Source of the DNA: the human T2T-CHM13v2.0 reference genome, Homo sapiens
NCBI GenBank assembly: GCA_009914755.4
Contig: CP068257.2
Location: forward strand, 13,152,001 to 13,216,000
DNA: 64,000 nt
Direction: 5' to 3'
Of the stretch, positions 5,442 to 50,545 are shown piece by piece (positions within the stretch are counted from its first letter, which is position 1; every line of letters starts with the position of its first letter). The notes beneath the pieces were generated by a model, which saw nothing but the letters and a program-made list of their open reading frames with translations, searched no databases and had not been told where the DNA came from. Made by a program: the position numbers and the translations under genes.

Positions 5442-9276
<3,835 letters not shown>

Positions 9277-11030: not shown

Positions 11031-11180
11031 TGTTTTTGTCATCCACAGACAATTGTTATCTTGTTTTAGTCCTCTTTAAAAGATGTTTTTATAACCAGCT
11101 ACAAAATTTAACAGGTGTTCTTAAATGCAGGATTGTGATTAATAACTCTGGAGATTGTGACATTAGAATAGACGAAAAAC

Positions 11181-11535
<355 letters not shown>

Positions 11536-13574: not shown

Positions 13575-15585
<2,011 letters not shown>

Positions 15586-22918: not shown

Positions 22919-23182
<264 letters not shown>

Positions 23183-24177
23183 TGAGACCTATTTCAGTGA
23201 AGCGTTCTTTTTAAAGTAGCAATTGAAAGTCCCCAACATGATGAGTCCACCGGGGTGAATAGTCTTCAACTGAAAGCCAGAGATAAAAAAAGAAATTTCT
23301 AAATATTAAAAATGCCATGATGATAACTTTGAAACTTAATTGCAAAAGATGGCGATAGCAATATCTAAAATGGCAATTGTCTGAAATGAGTGCCAATTAA
23401 AGGTCACAGGAACCTACAAAAAGGCTATGAGTGCTCCATTACACATTGCTAATTTGAGTAAATAGGGAAAGCGGCATTTATATGCAAATTGTGCGAAGAG
23501 AACATATTGCAAATATATTTCTACAGCTATGTTACCCATTTTCCTACTGCGTGTCTAATGAACAAGGGAGTTCCAGTCTTTATTAATAGCCTGTAGGATT
23601 AGCATTTGCTTTACAAAGAAATTGTCAATAAAAGAAAGGGGAGTTCCCAGAAGTTACCCACTCTACGAATCAGCACACTTACTACTAACACATGGATTTC
23701 AAAATTGACCAACACAGAATCAGAAACCTGTACCACAGTGTTTTAAACACTTCAGGCATGGAATGTAAAATGAGCACTAGCCGTGTCCTAAGAACAAATG
23801 TATTTTGAGCAAGAAAACATTTCAAAACTATCTTTGTTGTGTCCTAATGCTTCAAGCACTTTGGCCAAACAGTCCTACCATGTAAGTATCCCCCCCACTG
23901 GGATGCAATGGTTGAGGAAATTTCAAAATAGCTGTATCCTTTTAAGGAAACTATTCCTGTTGTTCGCTAAGGCAAAAGCTTGCGTGTAGATTTGTCTTCA
24001 AAGATCTTTGTCAACAGGTGTTAATAAGTTTGTTAATATCACAATTGGCTACTCTTTATGTACATTAAACACTAAGTATTAGAGAATAGAGTGATGATAT
24101 GTAGAACTTGCTATATAGAATTATTAATTTTCCATTTTTTCTGAGAAGCCTGCTGCCATTAAGGAACATCAGTTGGC

Positions 24178-43789: not shown

Positions 43790-44110
43790 AAAGACCGCTT
43801 GCACCTGCATAAATAACACAATTTCTCCCACTTGTTCCCCTAAGAATCTATATGTCTTTCCTAAACATGTATGTTCTTCTCATCAAAGCCTTTTCTCTCT
43901 CCTTCACTTTTTCTTTTAAATTAGGCCTATAAGACCCTAACTTTAGCTATTTAGTGAGGCCACTTCTTTTGTGTGCTCCCGTATGCATATATAAATAAAC
44001 TTTAGTTTTTATTTCTCCTGCTAATCTGTCTTTTGTCAGTTTAATCTGCAGGCCTCCAAGCCAGGAACCAAAGTGAGTACAAGAATAGTTTTCCCTCCGC
44101 AACACTTTGG
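43790..44110 (+). repeat. Unclassified interspersed-repeat segment, paralogous (about 75-80% identity by eye) to 50223-50545. Possibly the 5' end of a MaLR internal region
   Basis: Shared blocks cacctgcata...tgtctttcctaaa...tcttctcat...agccatttagtgag.ccacttcttttgtg.gctccc..atgcatat...tctgtcttttgtcag.ttaatctg. Copy B follows a THE1 LTR terminus directly. Confidence 0.4.
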
Positions 44111-44770
44111 CAATGAAGATGGGATGGTTGGGACTCCCCAGTCACTCTGAAGGCTGCAGCTGAGATCTCAGGATCTCTTGACCAAGCCAGCAAAGGTAAA
44201 TTTCCTTGCTGATCTCTGCTCAGCATCCAGCTGAGTGCGTGCAGTAAGAACTTGTCTTTGTTCAAACAGGAAAAGTTCCCTGATCCTCTCACAGGGCATG
44301 TGATGGGGGTGTGGCTTGCTTCTTCGTGCCCCACTGCTCAAACCTCTAGGGAAACTTACAGACGGGCAGGCTGTGGGGCTCTGACTCCTCGGCAGTGTCT
44401 AGGGGTGGATGTTTACAGCTCCTGAAGCCTCAGTGGGCGTGTGTCAGAGGGTGCTTAGAGGTTTGCCGTCTATCCGTCTACGGGTGGCTTATGTTAACCA
44501 GCTCAATTAGACCCTCTACCTTGTCACAAGGACAGAGGGCTGTTTCCTGAGTTCTTGCCTTGGTGTAGTGGAAGAATTGGACCACACGTGGGCTTGGAGA
44601 ATGAGTGTAAAGTTTTATTGAGTGGAAGTAGCGTTCAGCTGATGGGGCAGCCAGAAATGAGATAGTCTTCCGCTGGAGTTGGGCCACTCAGCAGCCTGGG
44701 CTCTCCTCCGACTGCCCTGGCCAAACTCCGCCTCATCTGGTTGGCCCATGGCCTGCCGGCATCTGTTGGT

Positions 44771-45496
44771 GTGCTCCTCCGCCAGCGTGCTTCCCCGCCA
44801 GCATGGTCCCCGACAGGTGCTCCTCCGCCAGCGTGGTCCTCGGCTAGGTGCTCCTCTGCCAGCGTGCTCCCCCGCCAGATGCTCCTCTGCCAGCGGGGTC
44901 CTCAGTCAGGTGCTCCTCTGCCAGCGTGCTCCCCCGCCAGGTGCTCCTCTGCCAGCGTGATCCTCGGCCAGGTGCTCCTCCACCACTGTGCTCCCCCGCC
45001 AGCGTGCTCCTCTGTCAGGTGCTCCCCCGCCAGGTGCTCCTCTGCCAGCATGCTCCCCCGCCAGCATGCTCCTCTGCCAGGTGCTCCCCCACCAGGTGCT
45101 CCTCCTTCAGATGCTCCTCCAGCAGGTGCTCCCCCGCCAGCGTGCTCCTCCACCAGCGTGCTCCTCCTCCAGCGTGCTCCTCCACCAGGTGCTCCTCCAC
45201 CAGCGTGCTCCTCCACTGCTCCTCCGCCAGCGTGCTCATGCGCCAGGTGCTCCTTCGCCAGCGTGCTCCTCCGCCAGGTGCTCCTCCTCCAGGTGCTCCC
45301 CCACCAGCGTGCTCCTCCGCCAGGTGCTCCTCCACCAGCGTGCTCCTCCACTGCTCCTCCGCCAGCGTGCTCATCCGCCAGGTGCTCCTTTGCCAGCGTG
45401 CTCCTCCACTGCTCTTCTGCCAGCGTGCTCCTCCGCCAGGTGCTTCTCCGCTAGGTGCTCCTCTGCTAGGTGCTCCCCTGCTAGGTGCTCCCCTCG
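44771..45496. repeat. GC/CpG-rich minisatellite (VNTR-like): about 45 tandem copies of a 15-16-bp unit (GTGCTCCTCCGCCAGC alternating with GTGCTCCCCCGCCAG; about 31-bp higher-order period)
   Basis: Seen directly: gtgctcctccgccagcgtgcttccccgccagc...gtgctcctctgctaggtgctcccctgctaggtgctcccctcgacg. All six frames are open across it, which gives the ORFs 44679-45815. Confidence 0.95.
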
Positions 45497-46721
45497 ACGT
45501 CTTGTCCCCGTCCAGCTGCTTGTGTCTTCTTCCGCTGATGTGCTCCTCTCCACACCCGGCCGCCTGTGTGTCTGCCCGCTAGGGTCTCAGGTTTTTATAG
45601 GCTCAGGATGGGGGCATGGCAGGCCGGGGTGGTCTCGGAAAATGCAACATTTGGGTACAAAAGCAGGGGTGCCTGTCCTCACCCAGGTCCGTGGGAGTAG
45701 AGCCCTTGCCAGGGACCACACCGCACTTCCCTCTCCCCTTCAGTATCATTTAAAGGGACCATGGTCTTCCCTTCCCAGTACTACCATATCATTGTCTTTT
45801 CTTTACAATATTTAGATTAGCTGGAGAAAACACTTATGGGAAATAGTTATTTGGGTATTGTGACTTTTAGTTTGCGTTCTCTTGTTATAGATCCTTTTGC
45901 TCACAGGGATAGTCATTGTGCCCTGTTTGTCTTGTTTTGTGTCTTGAAAGCTTGGCTTGGATTTAGTAAGAGAGTTCTCTCTCTCTGGTTTTCTGCCTGC
46001 CAGGAGTACAGGTTGCCAAGTCTGTGCTAAGAGATGGCCAAACATCAGATTGGGATCCCAAGAATTTGTAGTTAGCTGGATAAAAATCTGGGTAGCCCGG
46101 GCATTCCATTTGTTGCTGGCATTCTATCCACCATTGCTAATTTTCAGCAGTTTCATCACAGAAAGACAGAGACTTAGAAGTGGTGTTTATAGAAGTGGCT
46201 TGAGAAACGACCTTAGATTCCAGGGGCTGTATGTTCTGCACCCTTTCTGGGAATGCCTCTTGTGTCCCCACTGTTAAGCCACAGAAAGTCTTACTACTTC
46301 TGAGTCGCATTTTGGAACAGGTATACCTTTGGAGATCCTAAATCATGAATGGCCAGATGACAGATCCTTTGATCTGAAAAAGCTTTTATATTTAAAAGGA
46401 TTTTTAGAGAGCTTCCCCCCTAAACAAATGACCTGTTTGTACCTATGGAAAAATCAAATTAAAAGAAGAAGAAGAGTATCATGGCTAGCCTAAAAGGATC
46501 CCTTGGCAAAATTAAATAGCAGAAATCACATTTACAACAAAAATTGAAATCCACACAGACCATAAACCCTTCCACTGACAGTTATTCTGTAGTTGTGCCA
46601 CAAGCCAGATGGCCCCCTGAAAAAAATTCTCCTCACCAACATAACAAATGGCCAGACCCTTTTCTAGGCCTTCCTGTAAATAATCAGAAGTTGGCTGATT
46701 TGGAGGCTGATATTCAGGGCC

Positions 46722-47069
46722 TGATATGGTTTGGTCCCCACTCAAATCTCAAGTTGAATTGAATATCCCAGAATTCCCACGTGTTTTGGGAGGGACCCAG
46801 AGGGAGGTAATTGAATCATGGGGGCCAGTTTTTCCCATGCCATTCTTGTGATAGTGAATAAGTCTCACAAGATCTGATAGTTTATCAGGGGTTTCTGCTT
46901 TTGCTTCTTCCTCATTTTCTCTTGCCACCACCATGTAAGAAGTACCTTTCACCTCCCGCCATGATTCTGAGGCCTCCCCAACCATGTGGAACTGTAAGTC
47001 CATTTAATCCTCTTTTTCTTCCCAGTCTTGGGTATGTCTTTATCAGCAGCATAAAAAAGGTCTGATACA
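46722..47069 (+). mobile_element. THE1/MST-class solo LTR with 5-bp TSD GGGCC
   Basis: tgatatggtttggtccccactcaaatctcaagttgaattgaatatcccagaattcccacgtgttttgggagggacccagagggaggtaattgaatcatggggg...ccatgtggaactgtaagtccatttaatcc...gggtatgtctttatcagcagcataaaaaaggtctgataca. gggcc at 46717-46721 and 47070-47074. Confidence 0.85.
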
Positions 47070-48753: not shown

Positions 48754-49935
48754 TTCCACTCCTGACCCTTCCCAAATCTCATGTTTCATTCACATTTCAA
48801 AACCAATTATGCCTTCCCAACAGTCCCCCAAAGTCTTAATTCATTCCAGCATTAACCCAAAAGTCCAAGTTTAAAGTCTCATCTGAGAAAAGGCAAGTCT
48901 CTTCCACCTATGAGACTGTAAAATCAAAGCAAGTTAGTTGCTTCCTAGATACAATGGGAGTAAAGGCATTGGGTAAATACACCCATTCCAAATGGGAGAA
49001 ATTGGCCAGAATGAAAGGGCTACAGGCCCCATGGAAGTCCAAAATCCAGCAACACAGTAATTAAAGCTTAAAGCTCTAAAATGATCTCCTTTGACTCCAT
49101 GTCTCACATCCAAGTCATGCTGATGCAAGAGGTGGGCTCCCATGATCTTGGGCAGCTCTGTCCCTGTGGCTTTACAGGTTACAGCCCCCCTCCCAGCTGC
49201 TAGTACAGGCTGACATTGAGTGTCTGCAGCTTCTCCAGGTGCATGATGCAAGCTGTCAGTGGATCTGCCATTCTGGGGTCTGGAGGATGGTGGCTGTCTT
49301 CTCACAGTTCCACTAGGCAGTGCCCCCATGGGGACTCTGTGTGGGAGCTCCCATCCCACATTTCCCTTCTGCACTGCGCTAGCAGAGGTACTCCACAAGG
49401 GCTCCACCCCTGTGGCACACCTCTGCCTTGACATCCAGACGTTTCCATGCATCCTCTGAAAAATATAGGTGGGGGTTCCCAAACCTCCAAATGGTGGCTT
49501 CCATGCAGAGTTGACTTCTGTGCACCCCCAGGCCCAACTCTGCATGGAAGCCACCAAGGCTTGGGGCTTGCACCCTCTGAAGCAATGACCTGAGCTCTAT
49601 GTTGGTCCCTTTTAGCCAGGGCTAGTACACAGAGCACCAAGTTCTAAGACTGCACAAAGAAGCAAGGCCCTGGGCCTGGCCCAGGAAACCATTTATTCTT
49701 CTTAGGCCTCTGGGCCTGTGATGGGAGGGGCTGCCATGAAGTCTTCTGACATGCCCCAGAGACATTTTCCCCATTGCCTTGGCAATTCACATTTGGCCCC
49801 TTGTTACTTATGCAAATTTCTGCAGCTGGCTTGACTTTCTCCCTAGAAAATGAGTTTTTCTTTTTTGTCACATCATCAGACTGCAAATGTTTTAATCTTT
49901 TATGCTCTGCTCCTCTTTTAAACAAGAAGGGAGCT
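48754..49935 (-). mobile_element. THE1/MST internal region (MaLR-int), minus strand. Non-coding ORF remnants
   Basis: Contiguous with the LTR above. A very similar segment at 63296-64000 again follows a minus-strand THE1 LTR (shared strings such as agtcccccaaagtcttaa.tcatt.cagcattaaccca.aagtcca, ggtcatgctgatgcaag.ggtgg, cccccctcccagctg). ORFs 48934-49557(-), 49302-49640(-) and 63688-63945(+) lie inside these. Confidence 0.7.
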
Positions 49936-50222: not shown

Positions 50223-50545
50223 ACACCTGCATACACATTATCATAAACTGTATTTCCCATATGTTCCTCCAAAATCCATTTGTCTTTCCTAAAGAAATTC
50301 ATGTTTTCTTCTCATAGAAGTCTTTTTATCTTCCTTCTCTTTTTAAACGAGGTACATAAACCTCTACCTTTAGCCATTTAGTGAGCCACTTCTTTTGTGC
50401 GCTCCCACATGCATATGAATCAACTTTCTGATTTTGTTTTCTCTTGCTAGTCTGTCTTTTGTCAGGTTAATCTGGGGGTCCCAACCACTGAACTTAAATA
50501 GGGAGAGGAAACTTTTACTTCCCAGACAATGGTTGAGCATTTAGT
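50223..50545 (+). repeat. Second copy of the unclassified repeat (paralog of 43790-44110). Position fits the 5' end of a MaLR internal region
   Basis: Immediately follows the LTR terminus ...tgttaca. See copy A for shared blocks. Confidence 0.4.

What the first reader, a model, noticed from the sequence alone, without database searches (positions are those of the whole stretch)
44330..45760. CpG-dense, island-like block around the minisatellite within an AT-rich repeat desert
From about 44.33 to 45.76 kb the sequence is visibly GC-rich and retains many CpG dinucleotides (acgggcagg, ctcggcag, gccgtctatccgtctacgggtgg, cacacgtggg, tagcgttcag, tcttccgctgg; about 2 CpG per 16-bp unit through the array; then cctcgacgtc, ccccgtccagc, cacccggccgcc, ggccggggtggtctcgg, gtccgtggg, caccgcac). 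Genomic background in primates is CpG-depleted through methylation-driven deamination. Retention over about 1.4 kb therefore implies recent origin or expansion, germline hypomethylation (a CpG-island-like element, perhaps a cryptic promoter or insulator), or biased gene conversion at a recombination hotspot. Minisatellites are classic hotspot markers.
Basis: partly seen in the sequence, partly recalled or inferred. Interest (0 to 1): 0.5.

Follow-up and report, generated by a model that had tools for sequence, protein, structure and literature searches.

The report
Old retroviral LTR with expanded minisatellite
The GC- and CpG-rich block is a lone long terminal repeat left by an ancient endogenous retrovirus, in which a 16-base motif has been amplified about 47 times; it is ordinary repeat DNA whose CpGs are decaying, not a true CpG island.

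Summary
The block is real. Positions 44330-45760 have 63% GC and 62 CpG, with observed/expected (o/e) 0.45 against 0.16 for the rest of the window. It is not a CpG island: no 500-bp window passes the Takai-Jones criteria. Only 45120-45565 passes the lenient 200-bp rule, and three Alus in the window pass it too. The array has 0.8 CpG per unit, not 2.

The enrichment stops exactly at the ends of a 1530-bp solo LTR (44262-45791, sense on the minus strand). The LTR is flanked by a 4-bp target-site duplication (TTGT) and carries a TATA box and AATAAA. At least 17 other copies of this ~830-bp family were recovered from host-contaminated contigs, with different flanks. They are 70-88% alike and hold only 2-3 proto-units where the window has 47.

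CpG decay is plain:
- The unique LTR parts keep 12 of 34 ancestral CpGs, mid-range for the family.
- At the main CpG position of the array, units read CG 19, TG 11, CA 11.

The block has no PRDM9 13-mer and shows no significant weak-to-strong substitution bias.

Verdict: this is a known kind of TE-derived minisatellite. Its CpG density comes from LTR composition and amplification of a CpG-bearing unit. Methylation, polymorphism and hotspot status could not be tested.

The parts
44258..44261 (.). Left copy of the 4-bp target-site duplication, TTGT
   Evidence: This TTGT lies immediately outside the LTR end and is identical to the 4 bp at 45792-45795. The family copy L002 has its own 4-bp duplication, GAAT.
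44262..45791 (-). Solo LTR, 1530 bp, of an old dispersed family that is about 830 bp without the array. On the sense (minus) strand it runs 5'-TGATATGG...CCTGTTTGA-3'; the family ends in TTTCA.
   Evidence: Homology to at least 17 other copies with unrelated flanks starts and stops at these positions. CpG enrichment stops at the same limits.
44262..44613 (-). LTR segment 3' of the poly(A) signal on the sense strand (U5-like; this assignment is inferred)
   Evidence: It aligns with the family consensus. The 44262-44770 segment has GC 55% and CpG o/e 0.34.
44614..44619 (-). AATAAA poly(A) signal on the minus strand
   Evidence: The position is. CAATAAAAC is conserved in nearly all family copies.
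44771..45491 (-). Minisatellite of about 47 units of 15/16 nt. The sense unit is GCTGGCGGAGGAGCAC; on the plus strand it reads GTGCTCCTCCGCCAG(C). It was amplified from a 2-3-unit proto-repeat in the LTR.
   Evidence: TRF scores it 728-745. Other copies have 60-120 bp here, with 2-3 units. GC is 69%, with 39 CpG and o/e 0.50.
45158..45272 (.). Higher-order duplication inside the array, first copy
   Evidence: It is 96% identical over 115 nt to 45293-45407, which lies 135 bp further on.
45293..45407 (.). Higher-order duplication inside the array, second copy
   Evidence: Shown.
45120..45565 (.). The only sub-block that passes the lenient CpG-island rule (200-300-bp windows, GC>=50%, o/e>=0.6)
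   Evidence: Shown by the sliding-window scan. No window passes the 500-bp criteria.
45592..45599 (-). TATAAAAA on the minus strand (the LTR's TATA box; its function is inferred)
   Evidence: The position is. CCTATAAAAACC is conserved in most family copies.
45749..45791 (-). 43-nt 5' extension that repeats the start of the LTR, specific to a subfamily
   Evidence: It is shared with L005, L008, L011 and L015, where unrelated flanks begin just upstream of it.
45792..45795 (.). Right copy of the 4-bp target-site duplication, TTGT
   Evidence: Shown.

Best explanation
The block is a solitary long terminal repeat of an ancient endogenous retrovirus, most likely class I / ERV1. It lies on the minus strand at 44262-45791, in AT-rich DNA full of L1 and Alu.

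The provirus inserted with a 4-bp target duplication. It was later reduced to one LTR by recombination between its two LTRs (inferred from the duplication flanking a single LTR).

The ancestral LTR carried 2-3 imperfect copies of a 16-nt motif (GCTGGCGGAGGAGCAC) between the TATA box and the poly(A) signal. At this locus alone, slippage or unequal exchange amplified that motif to about 47 units, including a later duplication of a block about 135 bp long.

The CpG density has two ordinary sources:
- The GC- and CpG-rich composition that every copy of this LTR family brought with it.
- The amplification of a unit holding one or two CpGs.

The CpGs are not protected. They are being lost to TpG and CpA at both strands, as expected for methylated germline DNA. 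The loss is perhaps slowed by the very high local GC content (established knowledge, not tested here).

Shown: the element's limits, the target duplication, the family, the locus-specific expansion and the decay pattern. Inferred: the ERV class, the mechanism of expansion and the methylation state.
For: **Family**
- ORF-based and pattern-based retrieval gave L002-L016, L018 and L020. These are copies 70-88% identical to each other and to the window, with unrelated flanks.

**Limits and target duplication**
- The LTR spans 44262-45791 and is flanked by TTGT on both sides.
- L002 is flanked by GAAT on both sides.

**Signals**
- TATAAAAA and AATAAA lie on the same strand and are conserved across copies.

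**Array unique to this copy**
- The alignment has 682 window-only columns. Other copies have 2-3 units at that position, and TRF finds 2.5 units in L004.

**Age**
- Non-CpG divergence from the family consensus is 12.6%.

**Decay**
- 12 of 34 ancestral CpGs are retained and 18 are now TG or CA. The family range is 0-59% retained.
- Array site 1 reads CG 19, TG 11, CA 11.
- About 30% of bases at the CpG position have changed, against 8% elsewhere in the unit.

**Composition and island criteria**
- CpG o/e is 0.34 on the U5 side, 0.50 in the array and 0.44 on the U3 side. It falls to 0.23 and 0.09 outside the LTR.
- Other family copies have o/e 0.14-0.44 (excluding one 256-bp fragment with no CpG), against 0.41 for the window copy without its array.
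- Island criteria fail at 500 bp.

**Known kind**
- 23% of human minisatellites and satellites derive from transposable elements, LTRs included (PMC3389668).
Against: - No transposable-element library was available, so the family has no name. Its ERV1 class rests on the 4-bp duplication and the TG...TTTCA ends. No provirus with gag, pol or env was found for it.
- The window's own 3' end reads TTTGA, not TTTCA (one substitution).
- The unique LTR parts keep 35% of ancestral CpGs. My rough expectation, not a computed model, would be about 15-20% for fully methylated DNA at this divergence. Several other copies keep as much or more.
- The sub-block 45120-45565 does pass the lenient island rule.
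- Unit variants spread by duplication, so the TG and CA counts are not independent events.
- No methylation, transcription or recombination data could be consulted.
Confidence: 0.8

Rival explanations
1. The block, or its right-hand third at 45120-45565, is a germline-hypomethylated CpG-island-like element. It would be a cryptic promoter, enhancer or insulator that uses the LTR's own regulatory sequences, and its CpGs would be kept because they are not methylated.
For: - The 45120-45565 sub-block passes the 200-300-bp rule of GC>=50% and o/e>=0.6.
- The LTR has a conserved TATA box at 45592-45599 on the minus strand.
- CpG retention in the unique parts (35%) is above the family median of about 23%.
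- LTRs with tandem repeats that act as regulatory elements are known (general knowledge).
Against: - Overall o/e is 0.45, and no 500-bp window passes either island rule.
- Alus in the same window score higher.
- Half of the array units carry TG or CA at the CpG position, in equal numbers.
- CpG bases changed 3.5-4 times as often as others.
- Retention in the array does not differ from the unique LTR, and other family copies reach 45-59%.
Confidence: 0.07
2. The array is a recombination-active minisatellite. GC-biased gene conversion at a meiotic hotspot keeps or raises its GC and CpG content.
For: - GC-rich, strand-asymmetric minisatellites are classically linked to meiotic gene conversion (general knowledge; also stated in PMC3389668).
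- The window copy shows a slight tilt to weak-to-strong changes: 30:22 against its subfamily, and 19:25 against 160:308 in other copies.
- Internal block duplication shows ongoing exchange.
Against: - The tilt is not significant (P=0.25), and another copy without an array (L005) shows the same tilt.
- The PRDM9 13-mer CCNCCNTNNCCNC is absent from the block on both strands.
- The GC content of the unique parts (57%) is within the family range of 46-58% (51-58% once a 256-bp fragment is set aside).
- CpG loss is the dominant change in the array.
Confidence: 0.08
3. The CpGs survive simply because the array is very young, for example a human- or ape-specific expansion, and has not had time to decay.
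For: - The expansion is specific to this locus.
- A 115-nt stretch repeated 135 bp on at 96% identity shows some late growth.
Against: - Units differ from their consensus at about 8% of non-CpG positions and at 60% of site-1 CpGs. This is not much less than the 12.6% divergence of the LTR itself.
- TRF reports only 78-80% matches between units.
- No orthologous array could be examined. L019 stops inside U3.
Confidence: 0.15

Closest known systems
TE-derived minisatellites in the human genome (Ahmed and Liang 2012, PMC3389668)
   Same: A tandem array has grown by local duplication of a short segment inside a transposable element after its insertion. Loci with many units are rare among copies of a family. 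The window has about 47 units, against 2-3 in at least 17 other copies.
   Different: That survey required at least 95% identity between units. This array is older and more degenerate, at 78-80% matches.
LTR12 (ERV9) and other LTRs with internal tandem repeats
   Same: A GC-rich tandem repeat sits inside a class I ERV LTR, and unit number varies between loci (PMC3389668).
   Different: In LTR12 the repeat was already long in the active element and spread by transposition. Here the family consensus has only a 2-3-unit seed, and the long array is private to one locus. Sequence relatedness to LTR12 was not tested.
Classical GC-rich hypervariable minisatellites (Jeffreys type; MS32 is reported to lie in an LTR-like element, from memory and not checked here)
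   Same: The unit is 15-16 nt, GC is 69%, and there is strong strand asymmetry, with the C-rich strand on plus. Decayed variants read CCACCAGC, the reverse complement of the chi-like GCTGGTGG (unit list).
   Different: Hypervariability and meiotic instability are unknown for this array. The unit does not match the Jeffreys core as I recall it. The PRDM9 13-mer is absent.
CpG islands (Gardiner-Garden and Frommer 1987; Takai and Jones 2002 criteria)
   Same: The block is a GC-rich segment longer than 1 kb, with CpG density about 7 times that of its surroundings.
   Different: Its o/e is 0.45, below the 0.6-0.65 thresholds. It is a repeat. It shows the TpG/CpA decay that islands lack.

Membership tests
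CpG island | Length of at least 200 bp with GC of at least 50% | tested here: met
   The block is 1431 bp at 63% GC.
CpG island | CpG observed/expected of at least 0.6 over the candidate (Gardiner-Garden and Frommer) | tested here: not met
   The o/e is 0.448 for 44330-45760 and 0.436 for the whole LTR. Only 200-300-bp windows within 45120-45565 pass.
CpG island | At least 500 bp with GC of at least 55% and o/e of at least 0.65 (Takai and Jones, designed to exclude repeats) | tested here: not met
   No window between 43000 and 47000 qualifies.
CpG island | Unmethylated in the germline, or associated with a transcription start | not testable with these tools
   No methylome, CAGE or ATAC data were available. 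The indirect evidence is against it, because TG and CA decay products are abundant.
Solo LTR of an endogenous retrovirus | Member of a dispersed multi-copy family with discrete, shared ends and unrelated flanks | tested here: met
   At least 17 copies were found (L002-L016, L018, L020). Their ends coincide.
Solo LTR of an endogenous retrovirus | TG...CA termini | tested here: met
   The family runs TGATA...TTTCA. The window copy starts TGATATGG and ends TTTGA, with one substitution in the final CA.
Solo LTR of an endogenous retrovirus | Short target-site duplication directly flanking a single LTR | tested here: met
   The window has TTGT at 44258-44261 and at 45792-45795. L002 has GAAT on both sides.
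Solo LTR of an endogenous retrovirus | Promoter (TATA) and poly(A) signal in the same orientation within the element | tested here: met
   TATAAAAA is at 45592-45599 and AATAAA at 44614-44619, both on the minus strand and both conserved in the family. Their activity was not tested.
Solo LTR of an endogenous retrovirus | Family found flanking an internal gag-pol-env region, with a primer-binding site and polypurine tract | not tested
   No provirus was recovered. All copies seen lack a TGG... primer-binding site after the 3' end. No retroviral Pfam domain occurs in the window's long ORFs.
ERV1 (class I) LTR specifically | 4-bp target-site duplication (5 bp in ERVL, 6 bp in ERVK; established knowledge) | tested here: met
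   Two copies have 4-bp duplications. No match to a named Repbase or Dfam family was possible, because no such library was available.
Minisatellite / VNTR | Head-to-tail array of units of 10-100 bp | tested here: met
   The array has about 47 units of 15/16 bp and a TRF score of 728-745.
Minisatellite / VNTR | Length polymorphism between individuals | not testable with these tools
   The only short-read contigs touching the locus are chimeric or stop at the array.
PRDM9-type recombination hotspot | Presence of the 13-mer CCNCCNTNNCCNC | tested here: not met
   The window has three matches, none within 44000-46000.
PRDM9-type recombination hotspot | Double-strand-break or crossover enrichment | not testable with these tools
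   No DMC1, PRDM9 or linkage-disequilibrium maps were available.

The most novel reading that the evidence does not exclude
The LTR-borne array is a length-polymorphic VNTR whose right-hand part (45120-45565, next to the LTR's TATA box) escapes germline methylation. It would act as a copy-number-dependent regulatory element, or as a gene-conversion-active site, in an otherwise inert AT-rich region. The evidence does not exclude this reading.
Probability: 0.08. Interest if true: 0.35.

Novelty: already known. Interest (0 to 1): 0.1.

Why it matters
It matters little in itself. The case shows how a GC-rich, CpG-bearing patch in AT-rich primate DNA can be explained by a retroviral LTR plus amplification of a CpG-containing motif, with no need for an island, promoter or hotspot.

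Practical value:
- Patches like this should be screened against transposable-element families before being read as regulatory.
- The array breaks short-read assemblies. Two public metagenome contigs are chimeric at it.
- If the array proved to be a polymorphic VNTR with regulatory or recombination activity, it would be a modest addition to known LTR-derived VNTRs.

Tried and rejected
**Searches that found nothing**
- A second LTR or provirus in the window: blastn of 44000-46000 against the window found nothing beyond a 43-bp match.
- Rfam over the whole window: no match.
- Exact-pattern scans for the array doublet in viral, metagenome and prokaryote-genome contigs: 0 hits each.
- Full-text search for the unit and for conserved LTR strings: 0 papers.

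**Readings rejected**
- Bacterial-type promoter and terminator scan: uninformative for a primate sequence.
- Coding reading of the array: the long ORFs of 237-275 aa are mechanical. The period of 15/16/31 is not in frame and there are no Pfam hits.
- My first guess at the LTR limits (44308-45753, then 44268-45762) was wrong. Family alignment and the target duplication corrected it to 44262-45791.
- A short allele or orthologue without the array: L001 and L018 looked like this. However, their left halves belong to other family copies (about 79-81% identity to the window, different left flanks) and are joined at k-mers conserved in the family. They were therefore rejected as chimeric assemblies.

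**Tests that were inconclusive**
- Orthologue search with a right-flank ORF gave one contig (L019, 98.8% identity) that ends inside U3. It says nothing about the array.
- The GC-biased gene conversion test by substitution direction was not significant.
Full report
**1. The observation**

- The block has 63.0% GC and 62 CpG, or 4.3 per 100 bp. That is 15% of the window's 405 CpGs in 2.2% of its length.
- CpG observed/expected (o/e) is 0.448. The rest of the window has 0.16, and the 2 kb on either side have 0.23 and 0.09.
- At the background o/e, about 22 CpG would be expected (Poisson P about 5e-12), so the enrichment is real.

Two parts of the description are overstated.
- The array has 39 CpG in 47-48 units, or 0.8 per unit. 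The figure of 2 applies only to the idealised 16-mer.
- The block is not island-like by the usual tests. No 500-bp window reaches GC>=55% with o/e>=0.65, or even GC>=50% with o/e>=0.6.
- With 200-300-bp windows, only 45120-45565 passes GC>=50% with o/e>=0.6.
- Three Alus in the same window (about 11.2-11.4, 15.1-15.4 and 23.0-23.3 kb) pass that lenient rule too. Their element-level o/e is 0.62-0.72, higher than the block.

**2. What the block is**

Tandem Repeats Finder gives one array at 44771-45491. It has period 15/16 (31-bp doublet), about 47 copies and 78-80% matches, with consensus GTGCTCCTCCGCCAG(C). The window holds no second copy of the surrounding sequence.

No transposable-element library was available, so I looked for relatives indirectly.
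- A mechanical ORF running from the array into the right flank found two predicted proteins. Their contigs gave L001 and L002.
- L002 matches the window on both sides of the array, at 82-83% identity. It has only 117 bp where the window has about 780 bp.
- A translated, degenerate-pattern scan of metagenome contigs, using the most conserved stretch, returned 14 more copies, L003-L016.
- A second protein search gave L018 and L020.
- One source contig is labelled human gut metagenome, and the loci also carry Alu-like repeats. These are therefore host (primate) sequences.
- The copies are 70-88% identical to one another and have unrelated flanks. The block is thus one member of a dispersed repeat family of about 830 bp.

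**3. Anatomy**

The multiple alignment and inspection of the ends place the family's ends at TGATA... and ...CCTGTTTCA on the window's minus strand.
- The window copy belongs to a subfamily, with L005, L008, L011 and L015, that has a 43-nt 5' extension repeating the LTR start (window 45749-45791).
- The element is therefore 44262-45791, or 1530 bp. It is flanked by TTGT at 44258-44261 and again at 45792-45795.
- L002 is flanked by GAAT on both sides.
- On the same (minus) strand there is TATAAAAA at 45592-45599 and AATAAA at 44614-44619. Both are conserved across copies.

Together, TG...CA ends, a 4-bp duplication around a single unit, and promoter and poly(A) signals in one orientation define a solo LTR.
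- The 4-bp duplication and the TTTCA end point to class I (ERV1). This rests on established knowledge of target-duplication lengths. No provirus was found to confirm it.
- No retroviral domain occurs in the window's long ORFs. The window does contain L1 ORF2 remnants at 5472-8677 and Alus.

**4. The array is a local expansion of a seed present in the family**

- In the alignment, 682 columns are occupied by the window alone.
- At that position the other copies have 60-120 bp containing 2-3 imperfect units, for example GGGAGCACGCTGGCAGAAAAGCACAC. TRF detects 2.5 units of GAGCACACCGGCAGAA in L004 and nothing comparable elsewhere.
- The array lies between the TATA box and the poly(A) signal.
- A 115-nt stretch (45158-45272) recurs 135 bp further on (45293-45407) at 96% identity. 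The array therefore also grew by block duplication.
- The likely mechanism is slippage or unequal exchange. This is inferred.

**5. Are the CpGs protected?**

Unique LTR parts:
- I inferred 34 ancestral CpG sites from the other copies. The window keeps 12, and 18 are now TG or CA. The family range is 0-59% retained, with a median of about 23%.
- Non-CpG divergence from the family consensus is 12.6%, so the insertion is old. My rough estimate is tens of millions of years.
- CpG o/e of the other copies is 0.14-0.44 (excluding L013, a 256-bp fragment with no CpG). The window copy without its array has 0.41.

Array:
- The main CpG position reads CG in 19 units, TG in 11, CA in 11 and something else in 6. 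The second CpG exists only in 16-nt units, where it reads CG in 19 and CA in 3.
- Each base of the main CpG position has changed in 30% of units, against about 8% at other positions.
- Equal numbers of TG and CA are the mark of deamination of methylated cytosine on either strand.
- Retention in the array (19-21 of 47) does not differ from the unique LTR (12 of 34; Fisher P 0.5-0.8).

The high CpG density therefore reflects what was amplified, not protection.

Caveats:
- Variants spread by duplication, so the counts are not independent events.
- Retention of 35% is somewhat above my rough expectation for this divergence. Slower CpG decay in very GC-rich DNA is a known effect that could contribute. 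It was not tested here.

**6. Hotspot and gene conversion**

- The PRDM9 13-mer occurs three times in the window but not in the block.
- Against the strict family majority, the window copy has 19 weak-to-strong and 25 strong-to-weak private changes. The other copies have 160 and 308 (P=0.25).
- Against its own subfamily the counts are 30:22, similar to L005, which has no array.
- The GC content of the unique parts (57%) lies within the family range of 46-58% (51-58% once the 256-bp fragment L013 is set aside).
- There is no positive evidence for this reading, and it is not excluded either.

**7. Things that looked interesting but were not**

- L001 and L018 carry the window's right flank at 99.3-99.7% identity but lack the array. 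Their left halves are other family copies, with different left flanks.
- The joins fall on k-mers conserved in the family: TGCCTGTCCTCACCCAGGTCCGTGG, and the TCCAGCTGCTTGTGTCTTC region. They are low-coverage short-read chimeras.
- L019 matches 45638-46824 at 98.8% but stops in U3. No orthologous or allelic array could be examined.
- The long ORFs across the array are mechanical. They have no Pfam hits and the period is not in frame.

**8. Comparison with what is known**

This is a TE-derived minisatellite in an LTR.
- A published survey found that 23% of human minisatellites and satellites derive from transposable elements. In that survey, unit number grew locally after insertion and long arrays were rare among copies. 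LTR12 was a special case in which the repeat predates transposition (PMC3389668).
- The present case fits the local-expansion pattern.
- It fails the defining tests of a CpG island and lacks the PRDM9 motif. VNTR polymorphism, methylation and hotspot activity remain untested.

**9. Verdict**

The feature is an ordinary, already known kind of repeat, and if the window is from a reference genome it is presumably already annotated. Interest is low.

Noticed in passing
window 5472-6770 and 7040-8677 (+): These are L1 ORF2 remnants. They match Pfam endonuclease (PF03372) and reverse transcriptase (RVT_1) and lie in an A-rich stretch.
   Followed up: partly
window about 11180-11440, 15110-15410 and 22965-23270: These Alu elements have CpG o/e of 0.62-0.72 and pass the lenient CpG-island rule, so they score higher than the LTR block. 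The Alu 5' consensus matches at 15371-15406 on the minus strand.
   Followed up: partly
window 49100-49760: This is a GC-rich (55%) block with almost no CpG (2 CpG, o/e 0.04). A 207-aa mechanical ORF covers it, with no Pfam hit. From memory it resembles the interior of an old retroelement. It shows what a fully decayed GC-rich repeat looks like in this window.
   Followed up: no
L001 (ENA ERZ505017) and L018 (ENA ERZ981202, human gut metagenome): These public metagenome contigs fuse another copy of the LTR family to the window's right flank (99.3-99.7% identity). The joins fall at short conserved k-mers next to the array, so the contigs are probably assembly chimeras made from host reads.
   Followed up: yes
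L003, L010 and L012: These three copies of the LTR family share flanking sequence at 92-98% identity. They are either orthologues from different primate hosts or segmental duplicates.
   Followed up: no
L019 (Logan ERR1759394) against window 45638-46824: L019 is the same locus at 98.8% identity over 1187 bp. It comes from a closely related species or from noisy reads, and it ends inside the LTR before the array.
   Followed up: partly
window 45749-45791: A 43-nt 5' extension of the LTR repeats the LTR's own first bases. It is shared by a subfamily (L005, L008, L011, L015) and absent from L002, L007 and L010.
   Followed up: partly
window 44006-44048 and 50432-50474: These two stretches share a 43-bp match at 88% identity. 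It probably comes from another old dispersed repeat just left of the LTR.
   Followed up: no
window 44972-45340 (array units reading CCACCAGC): CpG decay (CCGCCAGC to CCACCAGC) has created several copies of the reverse complement of GCTGGTGG, the E. coli chi sequence often compared with minisatellite cores. This is a curiosity seen in the unit list.
   Followed up: no
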